Positions 40,991 to 47,001 of a stretch of 64,000 nt of DNA are shown here, in pieces. How positions within the stretch are numbered: the stretch's first letter is position 1; every line of letters starts with the position of its first letter. A program made the translations under genes and the position numbers. A model generated the notes under the pieces. The model had not been told where the DNA came from, searched no databases, and saw only the letters and a list, made by a program, of their open reading frames with translations. The DNA is from Candidatus Edwardsbacteria bacterium. Lineage in GTDB: Bacteria; Edwardsbacteria; AC1; EtOH8. The stretch lies in assembly GCA_020053305.1 (NCBI GenBank), contig JAGVNJ010000074.1, positions 7,348-71,347 on the forward strand, given 5' to 3'.

Positions 40991-42466
40991 ATGAAACACC
41001 GCACATCGCCACATAATTCGCCCCAAAGCCGGGCGCCGCTGTTCGACGCCCTGGCAAAATACATCAAACAGCCCAAGGTGCCGTTCCACACCCCCGGCCA
41101 CAAGCAGGGTAAGGGGATTGATAAGGCCTGGCGCCGGCTGGTGGGCGATGACATCTTCAGGATGGACCTGACGGTGCTGCCCGAGACAGACTGTTTGTTC
41201 CACCCCACCGGTGTCATCAAGCAGGCCCAGGCCTTGGCGGCCGGGGCCTATCATGCCGATAAAAGCTATTTTCTTATCAACGGCTCCACCGGCGGCAACC
41301 TGAGCATGCTGATGGGGGTGCTGTTTCCCGGAGACAGGATCATCGTTCCCCGCCATACCCATAAATCGGTGATAGCCGGGCTGATTATGTCCGGAGCCCT
41401 GCCCATCTACATCCATCCCGAGGTCAATCAGGAATGGGGCCTTATCCTGAACGTCTCGCCCGAAGTGGTGGAGAAGGCCCTGATCAAAAATCCCGATGCC
41501 CGGGCGGTATTCGTCTCCTCGCCCACCTATCATGGCATATGCTGCGACCTGGGGAAGATTGTCAAGCTCTCCCATCTCAACGACCGGATAGTGATGGTGG
41601 ATCAGGCTCATGGGCCGCACCTGTTGTTTCATCCCTCACTGCCCGCCTCGGCCATGGAGGCCGGGGCCGATATCTGCGTGGAGAGCTCGCACAAGATAAT
41701 CTCTGGGCTGACCCAGGCCTCCATGCTGCACGTCAAGGGCCCCAACATTGATATCCGCGATCTGGAGGAGGTGCTGCTGCTGACGCAGAGCACCAGCCCA
41801 TCATACCTGCTGCTGACCTCGCTGGACCTGGCTCGGCGCCAGATGGCCCTGGAGGGGCGGAATCTTTTGGAAAAATCCATCGCCATCTCTGTCAAACTGC
41901 GCAGCTCCATCAATAAGATAAAAGGACTGTACTGCCTGAATCCCGAGGACGTCAAGCCGTTCAAGCTTGATCCCACCAAACTCACCGTCTTTGTGGACAA
42001 GCTCGGGCTTACCGGATACCAAGCCAGCAAGATATTAAATCAAAAGTACGACATCCAGGCCGAGATGGCCGACTGGGACCATGTGGCCTTCATCTTCTCC
42101 ATAGCCGACGGGCAGTCCGAGGCCGATAGTTTGTTGCGGGCCCTGAAAGCCCTGGCCTCGTCGCACTATGGCCGCGGTCCGCTGCAAAAACTCGATATCC
42201 AGTTTCCCTCCAATTATCCCGCCATGTCGCTGACCCCGCGCGAAGCCTTTTTCGCTACTTACAAGATGGTCAAACTGAAAGAAGCGGTGGGGGAGATATC
42301 CACCGAGTTCTTCACCGTTTACCCGCCGGGGATCCCGGTGATCGTTCCCGGTGAGCGCATTACCCACGAGGCGGTGGAATATCTGGAAACCATGAAGCGT
42401 TTGGGAGCGATACTGGTGGGCCCGGAATCCGGCCAGCCGGGGAGGATCAGGGTGGTGGCGCAATAA
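40991..42466 (+). CDS. Orn/Lys/Arg decarboxylase family-1 PLP enzyme, probably arginine decarboxylase (Bacillus SpeA type)
   Basis: The N-terminal ..PLFDAL..VPFHTPGHKQGKG matches the OKR_DC_1 family, and SSHK is a PLP-lysine context. Being adjacent to speE supports a polyamine role. Confidence 0.8.
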   Translation: MKHRTSPHNSPQSRAPLFDALAKYIKQPKVPFHTPGHKQGKGIDKAWRRLVGDDIFRMDLTVLPETDCLFHPTGVIKQAQALAAGAYHADKSYFLINGSTGGNLSMLMGVLFPGDRIIVPRHTHKSVIAGLIMSGALPIYIHPEVNQEWGLILNVSPEVVEKALIKNPDARAVFVSSPTYHGICCDLGKIVKLSHLNDRIVMVDQAHGPHLLFHPSLPASAMEAGADICVESSHKIISGLTQASMLHVKGPNIDIRDLEEVLLLTQSTSPSYLLLTSLDLARRQMALEGRNLLEKSIAISVKLRSSINKIKGLYCLNPEDVKPFKLDPTKLTVFVDKLGLTGYQASKILNQKYDIQAEMADWDHVAFIFSIADGQSEADSLLRALKALASSHYGRGPLQKLDIQFPSNYPAMSLTPREAFFATYKMVKLKEAVGEISTEFFTVYPPGIPVIVPGERITHEAVEYLETMKRLGAILVGPESGQPGRIRVVAQ

Positions 42467-42537
42467 GGATAATGGGGACAGGATTATGGGAGATGGGGAT
42501 CTTATTTAAGGAAATAGAGATTATTGGGATTGGATAG
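42467..42537. repeat. three copies of GGAT(A/T)AT(T)GGGA motif upstream of promoter
   Basis: GGATAATGGGGA (42467), GGATTATGGGAGA (42481) and AGATTATTGGGATTGGATAG (42518). Confidence 0.4.
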
Positions 42538-42556
42538 TCTGAAAACAGGAGGGGGC

Positions 42557-42585
42557 TTGACAAATCGGGATTTTGGAGCGATAAT
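42557..42585 (+). promoter_or_regulatory. consensus sigma70-type promoter: TTGACA, 17-nt spacer, GATAAT
   Basis: Exact -35 TTGACA (42557-42562), 17-nt spacer, -10 GATAAT (42580-42585). Confidence 0.6.
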
Positions 42586-42627
42586 TCAGCTGTGCGACAA
42601 AACGAAAACAAAAAAAAGGAGATTAAA

Positions 42628-42738
42628 ATGTGTAATTCCTGCGGATGCGGCAGCAAGCTGACCTATAAGTGTGAAAAATGCGGCCAAACATCCAATCTGC
42701 CCAAGGAATGTTGCGGCCAGCCTATGAAAAAACAGTAA
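42628..42738 (+). CDS. 36-aa cysteine-rich small protein (zinc-ribbon-like, CxxCxC..CxxC..CC); missed by ORF track
   Basis: AGGAG 6 nt upstream of the ATG. Translation: MCNSCGCGSKLTYKCEKCGQTSNLPKECCGQPMKKQ. It is preceded by a consensus promoter and followed by an intrinsic terminator. Confidence 0.5.
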   Translation: MCNSCGCGSKLTYKCEKCGQTSNLPKECCGQPMKKQ

Positions 42739-42751
42739 GATCGGCATTTTT

Positions 42752-42787
42752 AAAGCGATAGCTGAATTTTCGGCTATCGCTTTTTTC
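42752..42787 (+). terminator. rho-independent terminator
   Basis: Stem GCGATAGC/GCTATCGC with a 10-nt loop, followed by TTTTTT. Confidence 0.7.
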
Positions 42788-42801
42788 ATTCCAGTTAACA
42801 C

Positions 42802-42830
42802 TTGACAATTAATGTAATTTGGTATAACAT
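42802..42830 (+). promoter_or_regulatory. sigma70-like promoter: TTGACA, 17-nt spacer, TAACAT
   Basis: TTGACA at 42802-42807; the -10 candidate is TAACAT (or an overlapping TATAAC). Confidence 0.45.
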
Positions 42831-42865
42831 TCGAACCTTGAGTTTTAACCGCAGATGAGGACCAC

Positions 42866-43087
42866 ATGGATAAGATCACCAAGGATATGACCATCATGGA
42901 AGTGGTCAACAAATATCCCCAGAGTATAAAGGTGTTTTTCGAGCACGGACTTTTCTGCATAGGCTGCAACGTGGCCTACCGCGAGACAGTGGAACAGGGG
43001 GCGATGGCTCATGGCTTGGACGTCAGCGAACTGATGGACAGGCTGAACGAGACGGTCAATAATCCCGATCCGGCGGAGAAGAAGTAG
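42866..43087 (+). CDS. DUF1858 (hybrid-cluster-protein-associated redox disulfide) domain protein
   Basis: Conserved ..TIMEVVNKYPQ...F..HGL.CIGC....ETVEQGA..HG.D of DUF1858 over 73 aa. Confidence 0.7.
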   Translation: MDKITKDMTIMEVVNKYPQSIKVFFEHGLFCIGCNVAYRETVEQGAMAHGLDVSELMDRLNETVNNPDPAEKK

Positions 43088-43101
43088 TCTGATATCATTG
43101 T

Positions 43102-43134
43102 AAAAAGCAGCCTGTGAAACAGGCTGCTTTTTTG
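43102..43134 (+). terminator. rho-independent terminator
   Basis: Stem GCAGCCTGT/ACAGGCTGC followed by a T-run. Confidence 0.7.
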
Positions 43135-43195
43135 TTTGACTTAAACTGTAGAATACTTTAAAATAAAAGACACAAACAGTAATGGAAAGGCGAGT

Positions 43196-44224
43196 ATGAA
43201 AAAAGTAAAAATACTTCCAATATTATTATTTCTATTTCTGTCACCTGCTGCCGGACTGGCCCAGGTTTTGGATGCGGAAGGCCGGGTCCAGGAGGTTGAT
43301 TCGGTCAGGATATTGATACTCCGAGCCGACAAGGCATATAACGATAAGGATTACGAGGGATCGGCCCAAGCCTACATAGCCCTGTTGCTGCATAAGCCCG
43401 GTTACGGGATGGCAGCTTATAGCGTAGCCTGCAACTACAGTTTGATGAACAGGAAAAAAGAAGCCATTAAATGGCTGGAACAGGCGGTGGAATGGGGTTT
43501 TTACGGTTTTGAAAAGGATACTGATCTTAATAACATCAGCAACACCGGACAATATAAGAAAATCCTGGCTCGGGCCCGCAAGTTGATAGCAGAATTGAGA
43601 CCCAAGATTGACAAGCCGGTGGTGGAACTTCCTCAAGACTACGACTCCACTAAAACCTATGGCCTGCTGGTATGCCTGCACGGTTACAGCGATAATCCCA
43701 GCTACTTCATACAAACCCTGGCCGGAGTTCCCCAGCAGTTGGGCTATATTGTAGCGGCGCCTTATGGGCAGGAAATCCTGGGCAAGGAGAGTTTTGGTTG
43801 GGGCAACTCGGAGGAAACAGAAAGGAACGTGCTGGCAGCAGTAACGGAGGTACAGGCCAAATATAAGATTGATCCCGCCAAGATAATACTAATGGGCTTT
43901 TCCCAGGGCGCATCCCGGACCTACTACACCGGCACAAAAAATGCCGGCCTTTTCAAGGGCATTATTCCTATAGCCGGGCGCTATGATTATGATTCGACAG
44001 TGGTCCAGTTCCTGCCCCGCAGCCGGGTGAACGGACTTAAAGTCTTTATCATGGTAGGGCAGCTGGATAATGAGAAGTTTATCAGCGCTAACCAATTAGC
44101 AGTGAAGTTTTTCATGACGGCTGGGGTCACTGTCAGTTTGAACGTCTACGCCGGAATTGGGCATACCCTGTTACCCAATAAAAAGGAGGAACTGCAGCGA
44201 GCCATCGAGTGGGTGGAGAAGTGA
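43196..44224 (+). CDS. secreted alpha/beta-hydrolase (phospholipase/carboxylesterase-type) with N-terminal TPR-like segment
   Basis: Signal peptide; LVCLHGYSDN and the nucleophile elbow GFSQGAS (GxSxG); a His near the C-terminus (GIGHTL). Confidence 0.65.
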   Translation: MKKVKILPILLFLFLSPAAGLAQVLDAEGRVQEVDSVRILILRADKAYNDKDYEGSAQAYIALLLHKPGYGMAAYSVACNYSLMNRKKEAIKWLEQAVEWGFYGFEKDTDLNNISNTGQYKKILARARKLIAELRPKIDKPVVELPQDYDSTKTYGLLVCLHGYSDNPSYFIQTLAGVPQQLGYIVAAPYGQEILGKESFGWGNSEETERNVLAAVTEVQAKYKIDPAKIILMGFSQGASRTYYTGTKNAGLFKGIIPIAGRYDYDSTVVQFLPRSRVNGLKVFIMVGQLDNEKFISANQLAVKFFMTAGVTVSLNVYAGIGHTLLPNKKEELQRAIEWVEK

Positions 44225-44322
44225 TGAAAGTTTCCAAGGACTGCTGAGGCAAGCCGATGAGTTGATTGCCAAGCTAAACCAAGCTCTGCCCGAGGAGGCG
44301 GCAAAAAAATGATCCAGGATTT

Positions 44323-44360
44323 AAAAAGCCCGGTCCTTTTGGGACCGGGCTTTTTGTTTT
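44323..44360. terminator. bidirectional rho-independent terminator between convergent genes
   Basis: AAAAAGCCCGGTCC-TTTT-GGGACCGGGCTTTTT: a perfect 13-bp stem with A-runs and T-runs on both sides. Confidence 0.75.
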
Positions 44361-45093: not shown

Positions 45094-47001
45094 CTAGGCC
45101 AGGCCCTCCAAAACCGAGGAAAGGGCCTTGACCTTGGCGGGGCCCAAGGGGGCGGAGTTGGCGGTAAGATTGAAAAGCAGCAGGGTGATATCCTCAAAAT
45201 CCGTCCGGCAGACGGAGTTGGCCTGGTATTTTTTTACGGCCTCAAATATCCCTTTCAACCGGCCCTGGTTGTACCTGAAAGCCACGGCCAGGGCCGTGAA
45301 ACTGGGGTCGTTATCGGTCAGTTTCATCTCCTGGAAAATAACGGAGATCGGCCGCCCGGAGAGGACATCGTTATGGACCTTATATTCCAGCTTGACCTGG
45401 GCGAAGATGGCGTCGTTGGTGACCTCCGGGTTGAGCAGACAGCGGTCCCCGATGCTGTAAAAGAGGGATTTTATCTGATCTCCGGGGATGTTCAGTTTTT
45501 CAGCCAGTTCGGAGACGGCCTTCAGGCGCATCTGGCGCAGGGCCCGGCTGGTGCGGTCGAATATCCGGAGCTTGGGTCCGAACCCGGGGATGGTCTTGAT
45601 GGCCTGTTCGATCCGGTTGTATATCTCCTCGTCATTCCAATTCTCCCGTTTGATTCCGAACAGGGTCTTGCGGTCGATCCAGATATCAATGATCGATATC
45701 TCCTGCTGCTGTTCCTTGCCGTTCTGGATATTGGTCATGATGTTGGGCTTGTCCGGCATGGCGGCCGAGAATCCCGGCACCGAGGTCAGGGCCCCCACCA
45801 CCTCCAGCCCGAAACCCTTGTCGTTGCCGGAGGCCACAATTATAACTTTGAAATGGTCCGGGGCGTGGGGGTGGATATAGCCCTGGGGGATCTTAATATC
45901 CTTCTCCTCGTCTATCATCAGCGGGACTATTTTGCGGCGGATCAGCTCCACTCCCGGGGTAGGGCCCAGGGTCTCCTTTTGCGAGGGGATCTCCCGGATA
46001 GCTTCAGCCAGTTTATCCTGAAGATCCCGGGCTATCGGCCTCTCCTGCTGATCGGTCAGTTCTATGTGAAAGACCGACAGTTTGTCGGCGGTGAAGTAGG
46101 CATAATCGTCATAACGGTGGTTCTGGGCCACCAGCTCGTTTATCAATCTCATCAATCGTTCGAAGGTGATGCTCTGTTCCTTGGTGATGACCGTCACTCC
46201 GGTCAGGGTCTTGCTGTTGTATTGCACCTGTTGGAAAGAAATTTCCAGCGAAGATCGCCCGGCCCGGATATTCTTCTTCATGACATAATTGCTCAGGATC
46301 TGTTCGGCCACGGATTCCAGGGTGCGTTGGTTGATGTATGATTCATGCCGTGACATGAAGAATTTCAGGGCCTCGCCGCTGTCGCCCATGATCTCCTTCA
46401 GGTCATCGGCCGGCAGCTTGCCCCGCAGCTGGTCGGTGACGGTGGTGAAAGCATAGAGCTTCCTGGCCTCCTGGCGCTGCAGGGTCCTTTTGGCGGCATC
46501 CTCGGAGGCGATGATGCTCAGCCTTTCCTGGATCTTGGCCCGGGCGATATCCAGGGCCTTCTGGGTCAAATGGGGCGACAATTCCACCTCCATCAGCACC
46601 ACCCCCAGTTTCTCCCGGTTCCTCCGCAGAATAAAACCATGGGTGTAAGCAATGTTCAACCCGGCCTCATGCACCGTCCCCAAGCAGGCATCAGCCAGCC
46701 CGGCCCAGTCGGGGGCCAGCACTCCGAACAACAGGGACGGCAGATCGTTATCGCTCTTTTCCACCGATACTTTCTCGGTTATCACATGGGACATACCGGG
46801 CAGCATATCCTCCTCGCGCAGCAGGCGTATCAGAATCGCCCTCTCCTGGGCGGTCAGCCTTCCGGCATAGGCGGTGCCGCGGGTGATCATCCGGTTAAAA
46901 CCGGCTATCTGCCTGTGGGTCAGGGACAGATGGGACAGATGGGAAAAAATCTGTGATAATCTCATATGGGTCAATGATACCATCTTATATTTTAAAGTCA
47001 A
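45094..47001 (-). CDS. hypothetical protein with about four ACT-like regulatory domains
   Basis: Repeated beta-alpha-beta-beta-alpha-beta ACT-like blocks, e.g. LLFGVLAPDWAGLADACLGTVHEAGLNIAYTHGF, KVIIVASGNDKGFGLEVVGAL and ISVIFQEM..FTALAVAF. No catalytic motif was recognised. Confidence 0.45.
   Translation of the reverse strand: MTLKYKMVSLTHMRLSQIFSHLSHLSLTHRQIAGFNRMITRGTAYAGRLTAQERAILIRLLREEDMLPGMSHVITEKVSVEKSDNDLPSLLFGVLAPDWAGLADACLGTVHEAGLNIAYTHGFILRRNREKLGVVLMEVELSPHLTQKALDIARAKIQERLSIIASEDAAKRTLQRQEARKLYAFTTVTDQLRGKLPADDLKEIMGDSGEALKFFMSRHESYINQRTLESVAEQILSNYVMKKNIRAGRSSLEISFQQVQYNSKTLTGVTVITKEQSITFERLMRLINELVAQNHRYDDYAYFTADKLSVFHIELTDQQERPIARDLQDKLAEAIREIPSQKETLGPTPGVELIRRKIVPLMIDEEKDIKIPQGYIHPHAPDHFKVIIVASGNDKGFGLEVVGALTSVPGFSAAMPDKPNIMTNIQNGKEQQQEISIIDIWIDRKTLFGIKRENWNDEEIYNRIEQAIKTIPGFGPKLRIFDRTSRALRQMRLKAVSELAEKLNIPGDQIKSLFYSIGDRCLLNPEVTNDAIFAQVKLEYKVHNDVLSGRPISVIFQEMKLTDNDPSFTALAVAFRYNQGRLKGIFEAVKKYQANSVCRTDFEDITLLLFNLTANSAPLGPAKVKALSSVLEGLA

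What the first reader, a model, noticed from the sequence alone, without database searches (positions are those of the whole stretch)
42467..43136. Consensus promoter driving an unannotated 36-aa Cys-rich zinc-ribbon-like ORF, plus DUF1858 redox protein, each with its own terminator
The promoter is an exact TTGACA-17-GATAAT. It is preceded by three GGAT(A/T)AT(T)GGGA motifs, which are candidate regulator sites. It drives MCNSCGCGSKLTYKCEKCGQTSNLPKECCGQPMKKQ, which has 8 Cys in 36 aa and a strong Shine-Dalgarno, and a clean intrinsic terminator follows. The ORF is below the ORF-track size cutoff. A second TTGACA promoter then drives a 73-aa DUF1858 protein (CIGC motif) with another terminator. 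Together they look like a small metal- or redox-responsive cassette. The Cys-rich peptide could be a metal chaperone, a metallothionein-like protein or a zinc-ribbon regulator.
Basis: seen in the sequence. Interest (0 to 1): 0.5.

Follow-up and report, generated by a model that had tools for sequence, protein, structure and literature searches.

The report
Short desulforedoxin-like gene beside DUF1858
The 36-codon open reading frame is a real, strongly conserved gene for a tiny cysteine-ligated metal protein, a shortened relative of the iron protein desulforedoxin; it is paired with a small thiol-redox protein and most likely belongs to an anaerobe's defence against oxygen stress.

Summary
P1 is TTGACA-17-GATAAT, followed by an AAGGAG ribosome site, a 36-aa ORF (42628-42738) and a terminator. 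P2 is TTGACA-17-TAACAT, followed by a 73-aa DUF1858/TIGR03980 gene and a second terminator. Two corrections: the peptide has 7 Cys, not 8, and the GGAT..GGGA repeats are no commoner than chance and are missing from most relatives.

The small ORF is a real gene. Against relatives, 10-13 substitutions fall almost only on third codon positions (dN/dS 0-0.03), and P1 is invariant in 11 relatives.

It is a divergent member of the desulforedoxin (Dx) superfamily. It has the YKCxxCG...CCGQPMKK signature, with 9 residues between Cys18 and Cys28 where Dx has 15, plus a conserved N-terminal MCxxCGCG tail. Dx and Dx domains are the best sequence and fold matches. The window peptide itself stays below the Pfam threshold.

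In sister lineages the peptide and DUF1858 genes form a tight operon. More distant homologues sit next to Dx-less superoxide reductases, rubrerythrin and a rubrerythrin lacking its rubredoxin domain, FMN reductases and ferredoxin.

Best reading: an Fe(Cys)4 one-electron carrier in oxidative-stress defence. Main rival: a Cu/Zn-binding peptide. It is a new variant of a known kind, of moderate interest.

The parts
42467..42530 (+). Three GGAT(A/T)AT(T)GGGA-like repeats (42467, 42481, 42518). Probably not functional and not part of the conserved unit.
   Evidence: Present but not enriched: 30 matches against 34 expected. Absent from most relatives that keep the promoter.
42557..42585 (+). Promoter P1: -35 TTGACA (42557-42562), 17-nt spacer, -10 GATAAT (42580-42585).
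   Evidence: CTTGACAA-N16-GATAAT is invariant in all 11 relatives aligned, including the GC-rich L123, while the flanks diverge.
42616..42621 (+). Shine-Dalgarno AAGGAG, 6 nt before the start codon.
   Evidence: Read from the sequence. An AAGGAG or GGAG-like site lies 6-9 nt before the ATG in 9 of the 11 aligned relatives. L007 has only AAGGGAAG. L123 has GAGGGA 11 nt upstream.
42628..42738 (+). CDS of the 36-aa short-loop desulforedoxin-like protein. Residues 1-8 form the MCxxCGCG tail. The core site is C15, C18, C28, C29.
   Evidence: dN/dS 0-0.03, with substitutions at third codon positions. Family alignment A3. Dx and Dfx are the best PDB sequence and fold matches.
42752..42789 (+). Intrinsic terminator T1: 14-bp stem, 4-nt loop, T tract.
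   Evidence: z = -7.95. The stem is kept by compensatory changes in L001-L006, L061 and L081.
42802..42830 (+). Promoter P2: -35 TTGACA, 17 nt, -10 TAACAT (alternatively TATAAC at 15 nt).
   Evidence: The -35 element and TA(A/C)CAT are conserved in L001-L006.
42857..42861 (+). Shine-Dalgarno GAGGA for the DUF1858 gene.
   Evidence: Read from the sequence.
42866..43087 (+). CDS of the 73-aa DUF1858 / TIGR03980 'hybrid cluster protein-associated redox disulfide' protein, with a CIGC motif at residues 31-34.
   Evidence: Conserved directly downstream of the peptide gene in the clade.
43102..43138 (+). Intrinsic terminator T2: 14-bp stem, 3-nt loop, T tract.
   Evidence: z = -6.07.

Best explanation
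The 36-aa ORF encodes a miniature metalloprotein of the desulforedoxin (Dx) superfamily.

Inferred mechanism:
- Four invariant cysteines (C15-x2-C18 and the adjacent pair C28-C29) form a Dx-type distorted tetrahedral M(Cys)4 site. The metal is most likely Fe, cycling between Fe(II) and Fe(III).
- The protein acts as a one-electron carrier, probably as a dimer, as Dx is.
- The loop between the two cysteine knuckles is cut from 15 to 9 residues.
- A conserved but flexible N-terminal MCxxCGCG tail adds a second thiolate cluster. This may be an accessory metal site, a metal-loading arm or an inter-subunit site.

Shown or directly read:
- The gene is driven by its own strong, conserved sigma-70-type promoter and a strong ribosome site.
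- In the ancestral arrangement it is co-transcribed with a 70-aa DUF1858 CxxC redox-disulfide protein. In the window's lineage a terminator and a second promoter were inserted between the two genes.

Inferred function: together the two proteins form a small redox relay in the oxidative or nitrosative-stress network of an uncultivated anaerobe of the UBP2-type lineage. The peptide would play the role that the fused Dx or rubredoxin domains play in desulfoferrodoxin, desulforubrerythrin and rubrerythrin.
For: Real gene:
- 10-13 differences against L001, L002 and L003 fall on third codon positions (0/0/10, 0/0/13, 1/1/13), giving dN/dS of 0-0.03.
- Peptide identity to relatives is 75-100%. In most relatives this matches or exceeds the identity of the neighbouring decarboxylase (69-90%). 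L050 is the exception (75% against 84%).
- P1 is invariant in 11 relatives.

Dx homology:
- Best PDB sequence hit over the core is desulforedoxin, E = 0.05 for the single sequence.
- With the family profile, Dfx (E = 0.0042) and Dx (E = 0.0045) are the only matches that span the whole core.
- The AF2 core (residues 11-36) has pLDDT of about 93.
- The top six Foldseek PDB hits are 1dxg and the Dx domains of 1dfx, 2ji2, 2ji1 and 1vzg, with TM of about 0.6.
- The family profile grades into PF06397.
- Short- or intermediate-loop homologues P0048 and P0054 pass the PF06397 cut-off, 24.5 against 23 bits.
- The YKCExCG...CCGQPMKK signature is shared with 2Fe-SOR N-terminal domains found in the genome scan.
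- hhalign of A3 against A4 gives 97.8% probability.

Context of homologues:
- P0083 lies 35 nt upstream of a 1Fe-SOR that has the PF01880 domain only, followed by ferredoxin and ferritin genes.
- P0042 is divergent from a CsoR-like / 1Fe-SOR / peroxiredoxin operon.
- In L153 the peptide start overlaps the stop of a rubrerythrin di-iron gene that lacks its rubredoxin domain.
- P0091 lies 20 nt after a rubrerythrin gene.
- Omnitrophota members lie next to FMN reductase (twice) and ferredoxin.
- Known natural fusions are Dx-SOR (PMC3116461) and desulforubrerythrin (PMC7482061).

DUF1858 link:
- It sits directly downstream in 10 of 13 metagenome members of the clade, and in L007, L010, L050, L097 and L123. 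Gaps are 7-36 nt, or about 120-135 nt with a terminator and promoter; in L123 a 341-aa ORF lies between the two genes.
- DUF1858 has CxxU selenoprotein forms (PMC9312934).
- A DUF1858/ScdA-domain gene is among the genes differentially expressed in a Leptospira perRB mutant (bioRxiv 10.1101/2020.11.06.371039).
Against: - No metal or expression data exist.
- The window peptide itself scores below the PF06397 threshold (12.6 against 23 bits).
- All E-values to Dx are weak because the protein is so small.
- Alignment A4, used for hhalign, was collected through the shared CCG[QK]PMK motif. That score is therefore partly circular.
- The shortened loop removes part of what forms the Dx dimer core, so dimerisation is an assumption.
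- The SOR and rubrerythrin contexts come from distant family members, not from the window clade. In the window clade the only conserved partner is DUF1858, and no SOR, rubrerythrin or hybrid-cluster protein gene was found where looked: tblastn of the whole 64-kb window for SOR and rubrerythrin, and Pfam scans of ORFs between about 40 and 56 kb for the hybrid-cluster protein.
- Some contexts point to thiophilic metals instead: CsoR-type x-C-H-C repressors next to P0042 and P0035, and a YHS-domain gene 3 nt after P0033.
- The function of the N-terminal Cys tail is unknown, and AF2 does not order it.
Confidence: 0.6

Rival explanations
1. The peptide is a thiophilic-metal (Cu(I), Zn or Cd) chaperone or buffer, a metallothionein-like or CopZ-like mini-protein. 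It would use all 7 cysteines, including the N-terminal MCxxC, to bind or hand over metal. It would not be a redox carrier.
For: - 19% Cys.
- The N-terminal MCxxCGCG tail is conserved across lineages, while the linker behind it varies.
- CsoR-family repressors with the x-C-H-C Cu-sensor fingerprint lie next to P0042 and P0035.
- A YHS-domain gene lies 3 nt downstream of P0033.
- A ZIP transporter gene lies near P0091.
- The Dx fold is deposited with several different metals under the same sequence entry (1cfw, 1dcd, 1dhg, 2lk5, 2lk6). Which metals these are is from memory.
- The strong promoter and ribosome site would fit an abundant buffer.
Against: - No Pfam hit to bacterial metallothionein or HMA domains.
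- The invariant core is exactly the Dx Fe site. The extra cysteines are variable in number, moved to the C-terminus or absent in many family members.
- The commonest neighbours are redox enzymes (SOR, rubrerythrin, FMN reductase, ferredoxin, peroxiredoxin), not metal pumps.
- No metal transporter or metal sensor lies near the window gene.
Confidence: 0.22
2. The peptide is a structural zinc-ribbon or zinc-knuckle adaptor or regulator. It would bind another macromolecule, such as RNA polymerase, a ribosome or a partner enzyme including DUF1858, and would have no redox or metal-trafficking role.
For: - Weak Pfam and PDB similarity of the YxCxxCG knuckle to many zinc ribbons and C2H2 fingers.
- Some sources label tandem members 'RPC12/RpoP'.
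- P0035 lies in an ECF sigma / anti-sigma operon, and P0051 and P0083 lie near response regulators.
Against: - The zinc-finger matches cover only the first knuckle and reach their scores by summing repeats.
- The adjacent Cys-Cys pair and the CCGxPMKK motif are Dx-specific.
- No nucleic-acid-binding neighbours recur across contexts.
- The only conserved partner in the clade is a CxxC redox protein.
Confidence: 0.1
3. The ORF is not a protein in its own right. It would be a Cys-rich leader peptide for attenuation at T1 controlling DUF1858, a RiPP (SCIFF-like) precursor, or a chance ORF.
For: A short ORF is followed 14 nt later by an intrinsic terminator, upstream of another gene. It is Cys-rich like SCIFF-type precursors.
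Against: - The amino-acid sequence is under strong purifying selection.
- It has homologues in unrelated contexts and phyla.
- In sister lineages there is no terminator between the two genes.
- A separate conserved promoter P2 follows T1.
- There is no NCBIfam hit, including SCIFF, and no radical-SAM or other maturase gene nearby.
- AF2 folds the core confidently.
Confidence: 0.03

Closest known systems
Desulforedoxin (Desulfovibrio gigas Dx, PDB 1DXG; Pfam PF06397)
   Same: Same size (36 aa). Same ligand pattern: CxxC plus an adjacent Cys-Cys pair. Shared YKCExCGQ...CCGxxMxKQ signature: 13 identities over the 25 aligned residues. Best fold match: TM 0.62, Foldseek probability 1.0.
   Different: The loop between the knuckles is 9 residues instead of 15, so part of the Dx dimer core is missing. 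There is an extra conserved N-terminal MCxxCGCG tail, giving 7 Cys against 4. The window peptide is below the Pfam threshold (12.6 against 23 bits). The metal and the oligomeric state are untested.
Dx domain of 2Fe superoxide reductase (desulfoferrodoxin, PDB 1DFX/2JI1) and of desulforubrerythrin
   Same: Identical C-terminal motif CCGQPMKK and YKCExCG knuckle. Homologues of the peptide are encoded next to Dx-less SORs, next to rubrerythrin, and next to a rubrerythrin without its rubredoxin domain. These look like 'split' versions of the known fusions.
   Different: It is stand-alone, not fused. In the window clade the conserved neighbour is DUF1858, not SOR or rubrerythrin. The loop is shorter and the Cys tail is extra.
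Rubredoxin
   Same: A small Fe(Cys)4 one-electron carrier. It is the usual electron donor to SOR and rubrerythrin in anaerobes (from general knowledge; PMC3116461 mentions rubredoxin genes clustered with sor).
   Different: Rubredoxin uses two CxxC knuckles and is about 50 aa. Here the second knuckle is Cys-Cys. PF00301 gives no significant hit.
TIGR03980 / DUF1858 / ScdA_N domain (N-terminal domain of RIC/YtfE/ScdA iron-centre repair proteins), for the 73-aa neighbour
   Same: Passes both HMM cut-offs. The CxxC motif is present. The family has CxxU selenoprotein forms, which indicates a redox-active motif (PMC9312934).
   Different: It is stand-alone, with no hemerythrin-like di-iron domain. 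No hybrid-cluster protein gene lies nearby. Pairing with a Dx-like peptide turned up in none of the papers retrieved here; no literature search targeted that pairing.

Membership tests
Desulforedoxin / Desulfoferrodoxin N-terminal domain (PF06397) | Four Cys ligands arranged as CxxC plus an adjacent Cys-Cys pair | tested here: met
   C15-E-K-C18 ... C28-C29. These are invariant in 31 family members and align to Dx C9, C12, C28, C29.
Desulforedoxin / Desulfoferrodoxin N-terminal domain (PF06397) | Score at or above the Pfam gathering threshold (23 bits) | tested here: not met
   Window peptide: 12.6 bits, E = 0.11, partial match only. Homologues P0048 and P0054 reach 24.5 bits and P0013 reaches 22.0 bits.
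Desulforedoxin / Desulfoferrodoxin N-terminal domain (PF06397) | About 15 residues between the second Cys of CxxC and the Cys-Cys pair | tested here: not met
   9 residues (G19-E27) in the peptide against 15 in Dx. HMMER and hhalign place a 6-residue gap. Intermediate (12) and full-length loops exist among homologues.
Desulforedoxin / Desulfoferrodoxin N-terminal domain (PF06397) | Dx fold (two knuckles on a small beta-sheet) | tested here: met
   AF2 core pLDDT is about 93. The top six Foldseek PDB hits are Dx or Dfx, with TM 0.59-0.63. E-values are weak (0.09-1.2) because of the small size.
Desulforedoxin / Desulfoferrodoxin N-terminal domain (PF06397) | Binds one Fe per monomer in a distorted tetrahedral site; homodimer | not testable with these tools
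   Needs purified protein (UV-vis, EPR, ICP-MS, SEC). Natural tandem 2x and 3x module proteins are only indirect hints of paired modules.
DUF1858 (PF08984) / TIGR03980 redox-disulfide domain (73-aa gene) | HMM scores above the curated cut-offs | tested here: met
   PF08984: 68.2 against 32.2 bits. TIGR03980: 85.4 against 44.95 bits.
DUF1858 (PF08984) / TIGR03980 redox-disulfide domain (73-aa gene) | Conserved CxxC (or CxxU) motif | tested here: met
   C31-I-G-C34, conserved in all relatives. CxxU forms are reported in PMC9312934.
DUF1858 (PF08984) / TIGR03980 redox-disulfide domain (73-aa gene) | Association with a hybrid-cluster protein gene (from the model's name) | tested here: not met
   No hcp among the ORFs scanned between about 40 and 56 kb of the window, nor in the relatives' loci. 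The rest of the genome was not seen.
Bacterial metallothionein (SmtA/BmtA type) | Match to the metallothionein HMM; Cys/His cluster pattern | tested here: not met
   No such Pfam or NCBIfam hit at E <= 1.
SCIFF / Cys-rich RiPP precursor | TIGR SCIFF model hit and an adjacent radical-SAM maturase | tested here: not met
   No NCBIfam hit. The neighbours are a decarboxylase, DUF1858 and hydrolases.
Rubredoxin (PF00301) | Two CxxC(G) knuckles and an HMM match | tested here: not met
   The second knuckle is CC, not CxxC. There is no PF00301 hit for the window peptide.
Leader-peptide transcription attenuator | The peptide sequence is free to vary apart from the regulatory codons; a terminator is always present between the leader and the gene | tested here: not met
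   Strong purifying selection on the whole peptide. Sister lineages have a 7-36 nt gap and no terminator.

The most novel reading that the evidence does not exclude
The 7-Cys peptide is not just a trimmed desulforedoxin but a two-site metalloprotein. In a dimer, the conserved N-terminal MCxxCGCG tails (2-3 thiolates each, plus a free N-terminal Cys amine after Met removal) would build a second, inter-subunit metal or Fe-S site next to the Dx-type FeS4 centres. Together with the DUF1858 dithiol protein, this would make a minimal two-gene iron-delivery or iron-centre-repair system. That would be a 'split', di-iron-free analogue of RIC/ScdA, or a one-electron to two-electron converter that reduces disulfides.
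Probability: 0.1. Interest if true: 0.7.

Novelty: new variant of a known kind. Interest (0 to 1): 0.45.

Why it matters
Stand-alone desulforedoxin is known essentially from one organism, and its physiological role has never been settled. Here a sparse but phylogenetically wide family of even smaller Dx-like proteins appears in UBP2-type bacteria, Caldisericota, Omnitrophota, Firmicutes (as tandem forms) and Thermoplasmatota.

Their gene neighbourhoods repeatedly look like 'unfused' versions of desulfoferrodoxin and rubrerythrin. This gives a testable role: a detachable FeS4 electron-entry module for superoxide and peroxide reductases.

It also gives the poorly understood DUF1858/ScdA_N domain a first candidate partner.

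In practical terms, this is a 36-aa gene family with no Pfam or NCBIfam model. It is named nowhere and will be missed by size cut-offs.

Tried and rejected
1. GGAT..GGGA repeats as operators. Rejected: they are not enriched and not conserved.
2. A conserved operator inside P1. Only a weak CAAA-N6-8-TTTG dyad appears in the spacer of about 7 of 11 relatives, and it is absent in L007, L097 and L123. Not convincing.
3. Riboswitch or known RNA in the leader. No Rfam hit anywhere in the window.
4. A longer 48-aa reading from the GTG at 42592. The upstream extension is not conserved, and the ATG has the ribosome site.
5. Antisense ORFs 42447-42656 and 42586-42969. Rejected by the third-position substitution pattern in the + frame.
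6. Leader-peptide attenuation, SCIFF/RiPP precursor and metallothionein. Rejected; see the membership tests.
7. A hybrid-cluster protein, SOR or rubrerythrin gene in the window. None found.
8. The 138- and 139-aa ORFs preceding P0083 and P0051 as a shared partner. They are unrelated.
9. The top hits of the PDB profile search (C2H2 zinc fingers, albumin). These are artefacts of a repeated half-motif or of Cys-rich composition.
I worked around this with the 48-aa extension and with DNA patterns.
11. PF26408 is listed for tandem members in a precomputed table. I could not identify it with the local Pfam copy.
Full report
**1. What is in the sequence**

Reading 42000-43600, the ORF list and the consensus scan confirm the anatomy.

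- P1 is TTGACA (42557-42562), a 17-nt spacer and GATAAT (42580-42585), 11 of 12 matches.
- An A-rich leader of about 36 nt ends in AAGGAG (42616-42621), 6 nt before the ATG at 42628.
- The 36-codon ORF ends at TAA 42736-42738.
- T1 is a 14-bp hairpin (42752-42783) followed by a T run, -20.8 kcal/mol, z = -7.95 against shuffles.
- P2 is TTGACA (42802-42807), 17 nt and TAACAT (42825-42830).
- GAGGA (42857-42861) precedes a 73-codon ORF at 42866-43087.
- T2 is a hairpin at 43102-43132, -22.5 kcal/mol, z = -6.07.

The peptide is MCNSCGCGSKLTYKCEKCGQTSNLPKECCGQPMKKQ. It has seven cysteines (2, 5, 7, 15, 18, 28, 29), not eight.

The 73-aa product is a clear DUF1858 / TIGR03980 'hybrid cluster protein-associated redox disulfide' protein with a CIGC motif. 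It scores 68.2 bits against a cut-off of 32.2, and 85.4 bits against 44.95.

The three GGAT(A/T)AT(T)GGGA copies exist. The motif occurs 30 times in the window at up to 2 mismatches, against 34 +/- 6 expected.

**2. The small ORF is a real gene**

The identical peptide is encoded on two other public contigs, and a two-substitution variant (P0001) on five more. All show the order speE, Orn/Lys/Arg decarboxylase, peptide, DUF1858.

In DNA alignments the peptide gene differs from these relatives at 10-13 positions. By codon position the differences are 0/0/10, 0/0/13 and 1/1/13. Nei-Gojobori dN/dS is 0-0.03 at dS of 0.7-1.6.

Across ten more distant relatives the peptide stays 75-100% identical. 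In most of them this matches or exceeds the identity of the adjacent decarboxylase (69-90%); L050 is the exception, at 75% against 84%.

The antisense ORFs and the 48-aa GTG-extended reading are excluded by this pattern and by the unconserved upstream extension.

**3. Regulatory elements**

In 11 relatives CTTGACAA-N16-GATAAT is invariant while the surrounding DNA is free to change. This includes a GC-rich genome (L123) in which the upstream gene is different.

T1 keeps its stem through compensatory changes: GCGATAGC/GCTATCGC, GCGACAGC/GCTGTCGC and GCGACG../..CGTCGC. P2's -35 element and its TA(A/C)CAT -10 are conserved in L001-L006.

The GGAT repeats occur only in the window, L001 and L002. 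They are deleted in L003-L006 and absent in L061, whose peptide differs by one residue, and in all other relatives. They are therefore not a conserved operator. No other convincing operator and no Rfam element was found.

Importantly, in L007, L010, L097, L050, L151, L156, L158 and L161 the peptide and DUF1858 genes are only 7-36 nt apart, with no terminator. The ancestral state is an operon. The terminator-plus-promoter insert, a gap of about 120-135 nt, is a derived feature of the window's sub-clade.

In a metagenome-wide pattern scan, 10 of 13 clade members had DUF1858 immediately downstream. Of the remaining three, one is cut by a contig end and two belong to other sub-lineages.

**4. What the peptide is**

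No Pfam or NCBIfam model reaches threshold. The best weak hit is PF06397 (desulfoferrodoxin N-terminal domain, i.e. desulforedoxin) on CCGQPMKK.

Against PDB sequences the best hit over the core is D. gigas desulforedoxin: tYKCEkCGQ......CCGqpMkKQ, with a 6-residue gap, E = 0.05.

An exhaustive HMMER search of 1.84 billion representatives found only 12 relatives at E < 0.001. A profile search of 5.8 billion clusters found about 50 at E < 0.001. Together these reveal a roughly 24-residue module, Y-x-C-x-x-C-G-x-[TS]-S-x-x-P-x-x-C-C-G-x-P-M-K-K. It occurs singly (35-45 aa), in tandem twice or three times (52-81 aa), and at the C-terminus of a 303-aa protein.

In the alignment of 31 single-module members, Y13, C15, C18, C28, C29 and M33 are invariant. 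The N-terminal cysteine cluster varies. It is MCxxCGCG in the window's sub-family, where it is strictly conserved although the linker behind it varies. Elsewhere it is reduced to two cysteines, moved to the C-terminus (P0008, P0048) or absent.

The profile grades into bona fide PF06397 proteins. Short- or intermediate-loop members P0048 and P0054 pass the PF06397 cut-off at 24.5 against 23 bits.

A genome-wide scan for CCG[QK]PMK[KN] mostly returned 2Fe-SORs whose N-terminal Dx domain reads YKCExCGNIVEVLHGGxGELVCCGQPMKK. These are the same two motifs, separated by 15 rather than 9 residues.

- With the family profile, Dfx (E = 0.0042) and Dx (E = 0.0045) are the only PDB matches that cover the whole core. 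Higher-ranked C2H2 fingers match only the first knuckle, repeatedly.
- AlphaFold2 folds residues 11-36 at pLDDT of about 93 and leaves residues 1-10 disordered.
- The six best Foldseek PDB matches are 1dxg and the Dx domains of 1dfx, 2ji2, 2ji1 and 1vzg, with TM of about 0.6.
- hhalign between the family (A3) and canonical Dx or Dfx N-termini (A4) gives 97.8% probability. A4 was assembled through the shared C-terminal motif, so this number is inflated.

Overall, homology to the Dx superfamily is well supported. Strict membership of PF06397 fails on the score and on the loop length.

**5. What it probably does**

Dx-type centres are Fe(Cys)4 redox centres with potentials around 0 mV. They occur fused to superoxide reductase (Dx-SOR, PMC3116461) and to rubrerythrin (desulforubrerythrin, PMC7482061).

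The neighbourhoods of family members look like unfused versions of these enzymes:

- P0083 (N-terminal Cys tail, long loop) lies 35 nt upstream of a 127-aa SOR that has only the PF01880 domain, followed by ferredoxin and ferritin genes.
- P0042 (N-terminal tail, short loop) is divergently transcribed from a CsoR-like / 1Fe-SOR / peroxiredoxin operon. The SOR has no Dx domain.
- In L153 a short-loop MCKSCGCG peptide starts 8 nt before the stop of a 167-aa rubrerythrin di-iron gene. That gene lacks the rubredoxin-like domain. Thioredoxin, DsbD_TM and a TlpA-like gene lie further along the same contig, transcribed on the opposite strand.
- P0091 follows a rubrerythrin gene by 20 nt.
- Omnitrophota members sit next to NADPH-dependent FMN reductases (twice), a 4Fe-4S ferredoxin and a YflT stress protein.
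- P0033 lies between FMN reductase, CMD and PNPOx genes on one side and a YHS-domain gene on the other.

I therefore infer that the peptide is a detachable FeS4 one-electron module in the oxidative-stress network.

In the window clade its conserved partner is DUF1858. That domain is related to the N-terminal domain of the RIC/ScdA iron-centre repair proteins. Its CxxC has CxxU selenoprotein variants (PMC9312934). A homologue is among the genes differentially expressed in a Leptospira perRB mutant.

The near-consensus promoter and strong ribosome site suggest high expression. The steps from 'Dx-like fold' to 'Fe', 'dimer' and 'electron transfer to or with DUF1858' are inferences; none is shown.

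**6. Rivals**

A thiophilic-metal chaperone or buffer is the main rival, at about 0.2. It rests on the conserved MCxxCGCG tail, CsoR-type (x-C-H-C) repressors beside P0042 and P0035, the YHS neighbour and a ZIP transporter.

Against it, the invariant part of the family is exactly the Dx iron site, the extra cysteines are dispensable in many members, and redox enzymes dominate the neighbourhoods.

A structural zinc-ribbon regulator (about 0.1) has only generic knuckle similarity in its favour. Leader peptide, RiPP precursor and chance ORF are effectively excluded.

**7. Context and lineage**

The window (52.8% GC) carries housekeeping genes around the pair. Upstream are speE and a PLP-dependent decarboxylase. 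Downstream are a lineage-specific secreted TPR/esterase gene, a HAD hydrolase, an uncharacterised 635-aa gene, panB, panC and argS.

No SOR or rubrerythrin gene lies in the 64 kb (tblastn), and no hybrid-cluster protein was seen among the ORFs scanned by Pfam between about 40 and 56 kb. Named genome relatives are 'bacterium UBP2_UBA4780', 'bacterium UBP2_UBA2255' and unnamed MAGs. The source is thus an uncultivated UBP2-type bacterium.

**8. Verdict**

This is a redox or metal mini-cassette, but there is no evidence for the proposed regulator sites, and the specific identity, a short-loop desulforedoxin-family protein, was missed.

It is a new variant of a known kind. It has no family model and no name, it extends the Dx superfamily to a smaller scaffold with an extra Cys tail, and it supplies a first candidate partner for DUF1858. 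Interest is moderate (0.45).

Noticed in passing
window 43136-44356: A 342-aa gene (43196-44224, +) encodes a signal peptide, TPR repeats and an alpha/beta-hydrolase or esterase domain. It has its own promoter (TTGACT-17-TAAAAT at 43136-43164) and terminator (44322-44356). It lies between DUF1858 and the HAD hydrolase only in the window. In L002-L007 and L010 the HAD hydrolase follows DUF1858 directly, so this looks like a lineage-specific insertion. L123 has a 341-aa alpha/beta-hydrolase-like ORF between the peptide and DUF1858 instead.
   Followed up: partly
window 45094-47001 (-): A 635-aa ORF with no Pfam hit at E <= 1e-5. It is conserved at the same position (623-640 aa, also with no Pfam hit on record) in all relatives examined. 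It is an uncharacterised protein specific to this clade.
   Followed up: no
L153 429-1068 (-): A short-loop MCKSCGCG peptide gene overlaps the stop of a 167-aa rubrerythrin di-iron-domain gene that lacks the rubredoxin-like domain (PF02915 only). This amounts to a 'split rubrerythrin'. Thioredoxin, DsbD_TM and a TlpA-like peroxiredoxin are encoded nearby on the opposite strand.
   Followed up: partly
L145/L146 3001-4201: In an Omnitrophota MAG a Dx-like 46-aa gene (N-terminal Cys tail, full-length loop) lies directly upstream of a Dx-less 1Fe-SOR, then ferredoxin and ferritin. The gene order mirrors the domain order of desulfoferrodoxin.
   Followed up: partly
L045, L052, L054, L062, L091, L102, L104, L134, L135 (matches listed): Thermoplasmata and other archaeal MAGs carry a 63-71-aa family. 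It has an N-terminal Dx-like knuckle pair (YxCxxCxK...CCGKPMKK) and a conserved C-terminal CLQPDHAEHSRPM..DEPCDDFRGG segment. It has no name.
   Followed up: no
L033, L034, L047, L075; L084, L088, L117, L130, L139: Two further unnamed Cys-rich Dx-motif mini-protein families. One is 46 aa: YKCQCGCG...CCGKPMKK...CECCCC. The other has an extra CGC inside the loop (YECRVCGYRVVVDEACGCAEEHVFVCCGQPMKK) and occurs in Aminicenantes and Acidobacteriota.
   Followed up: no
P0003, P0005, P0007, P0009, P0014-P0022: Tandem two-module (52-67 aa) and three-module (81 aa) versions of the short-loop module occur, mainly in Firmicutes MAGs (Thermincola, Peptococcaceae, Phosphitispora). In several members (P0003, P0005, P0014, P0016) the first module has C-H-G instead of C-C-G. 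The precomputed table lists PF26408 for two of them; the local Pfam copy does not return it.
   Followed up: partly
L160 (contig Ga0074195_1000001, 2.68 Mb): A relative carrying the P0001 peptide and DUF1858 lies on a 2.68-Mb metagenome contig, a near-complete genome. It would allow a whole-genome inventory of SOR, rubrerythrin and rubredoxin genes for this lineage.
   Followed up: no
window 42400-42412 and 42571-42583: A 13-nt direct repeat, TTTGGGAGCGATA / TTTTGGAGCGATA. One copy is inside the end of the decarboxylase gene and the other spans the P1 spacer and -10 element. With only two copies it is probably chance.
   Followed up: no
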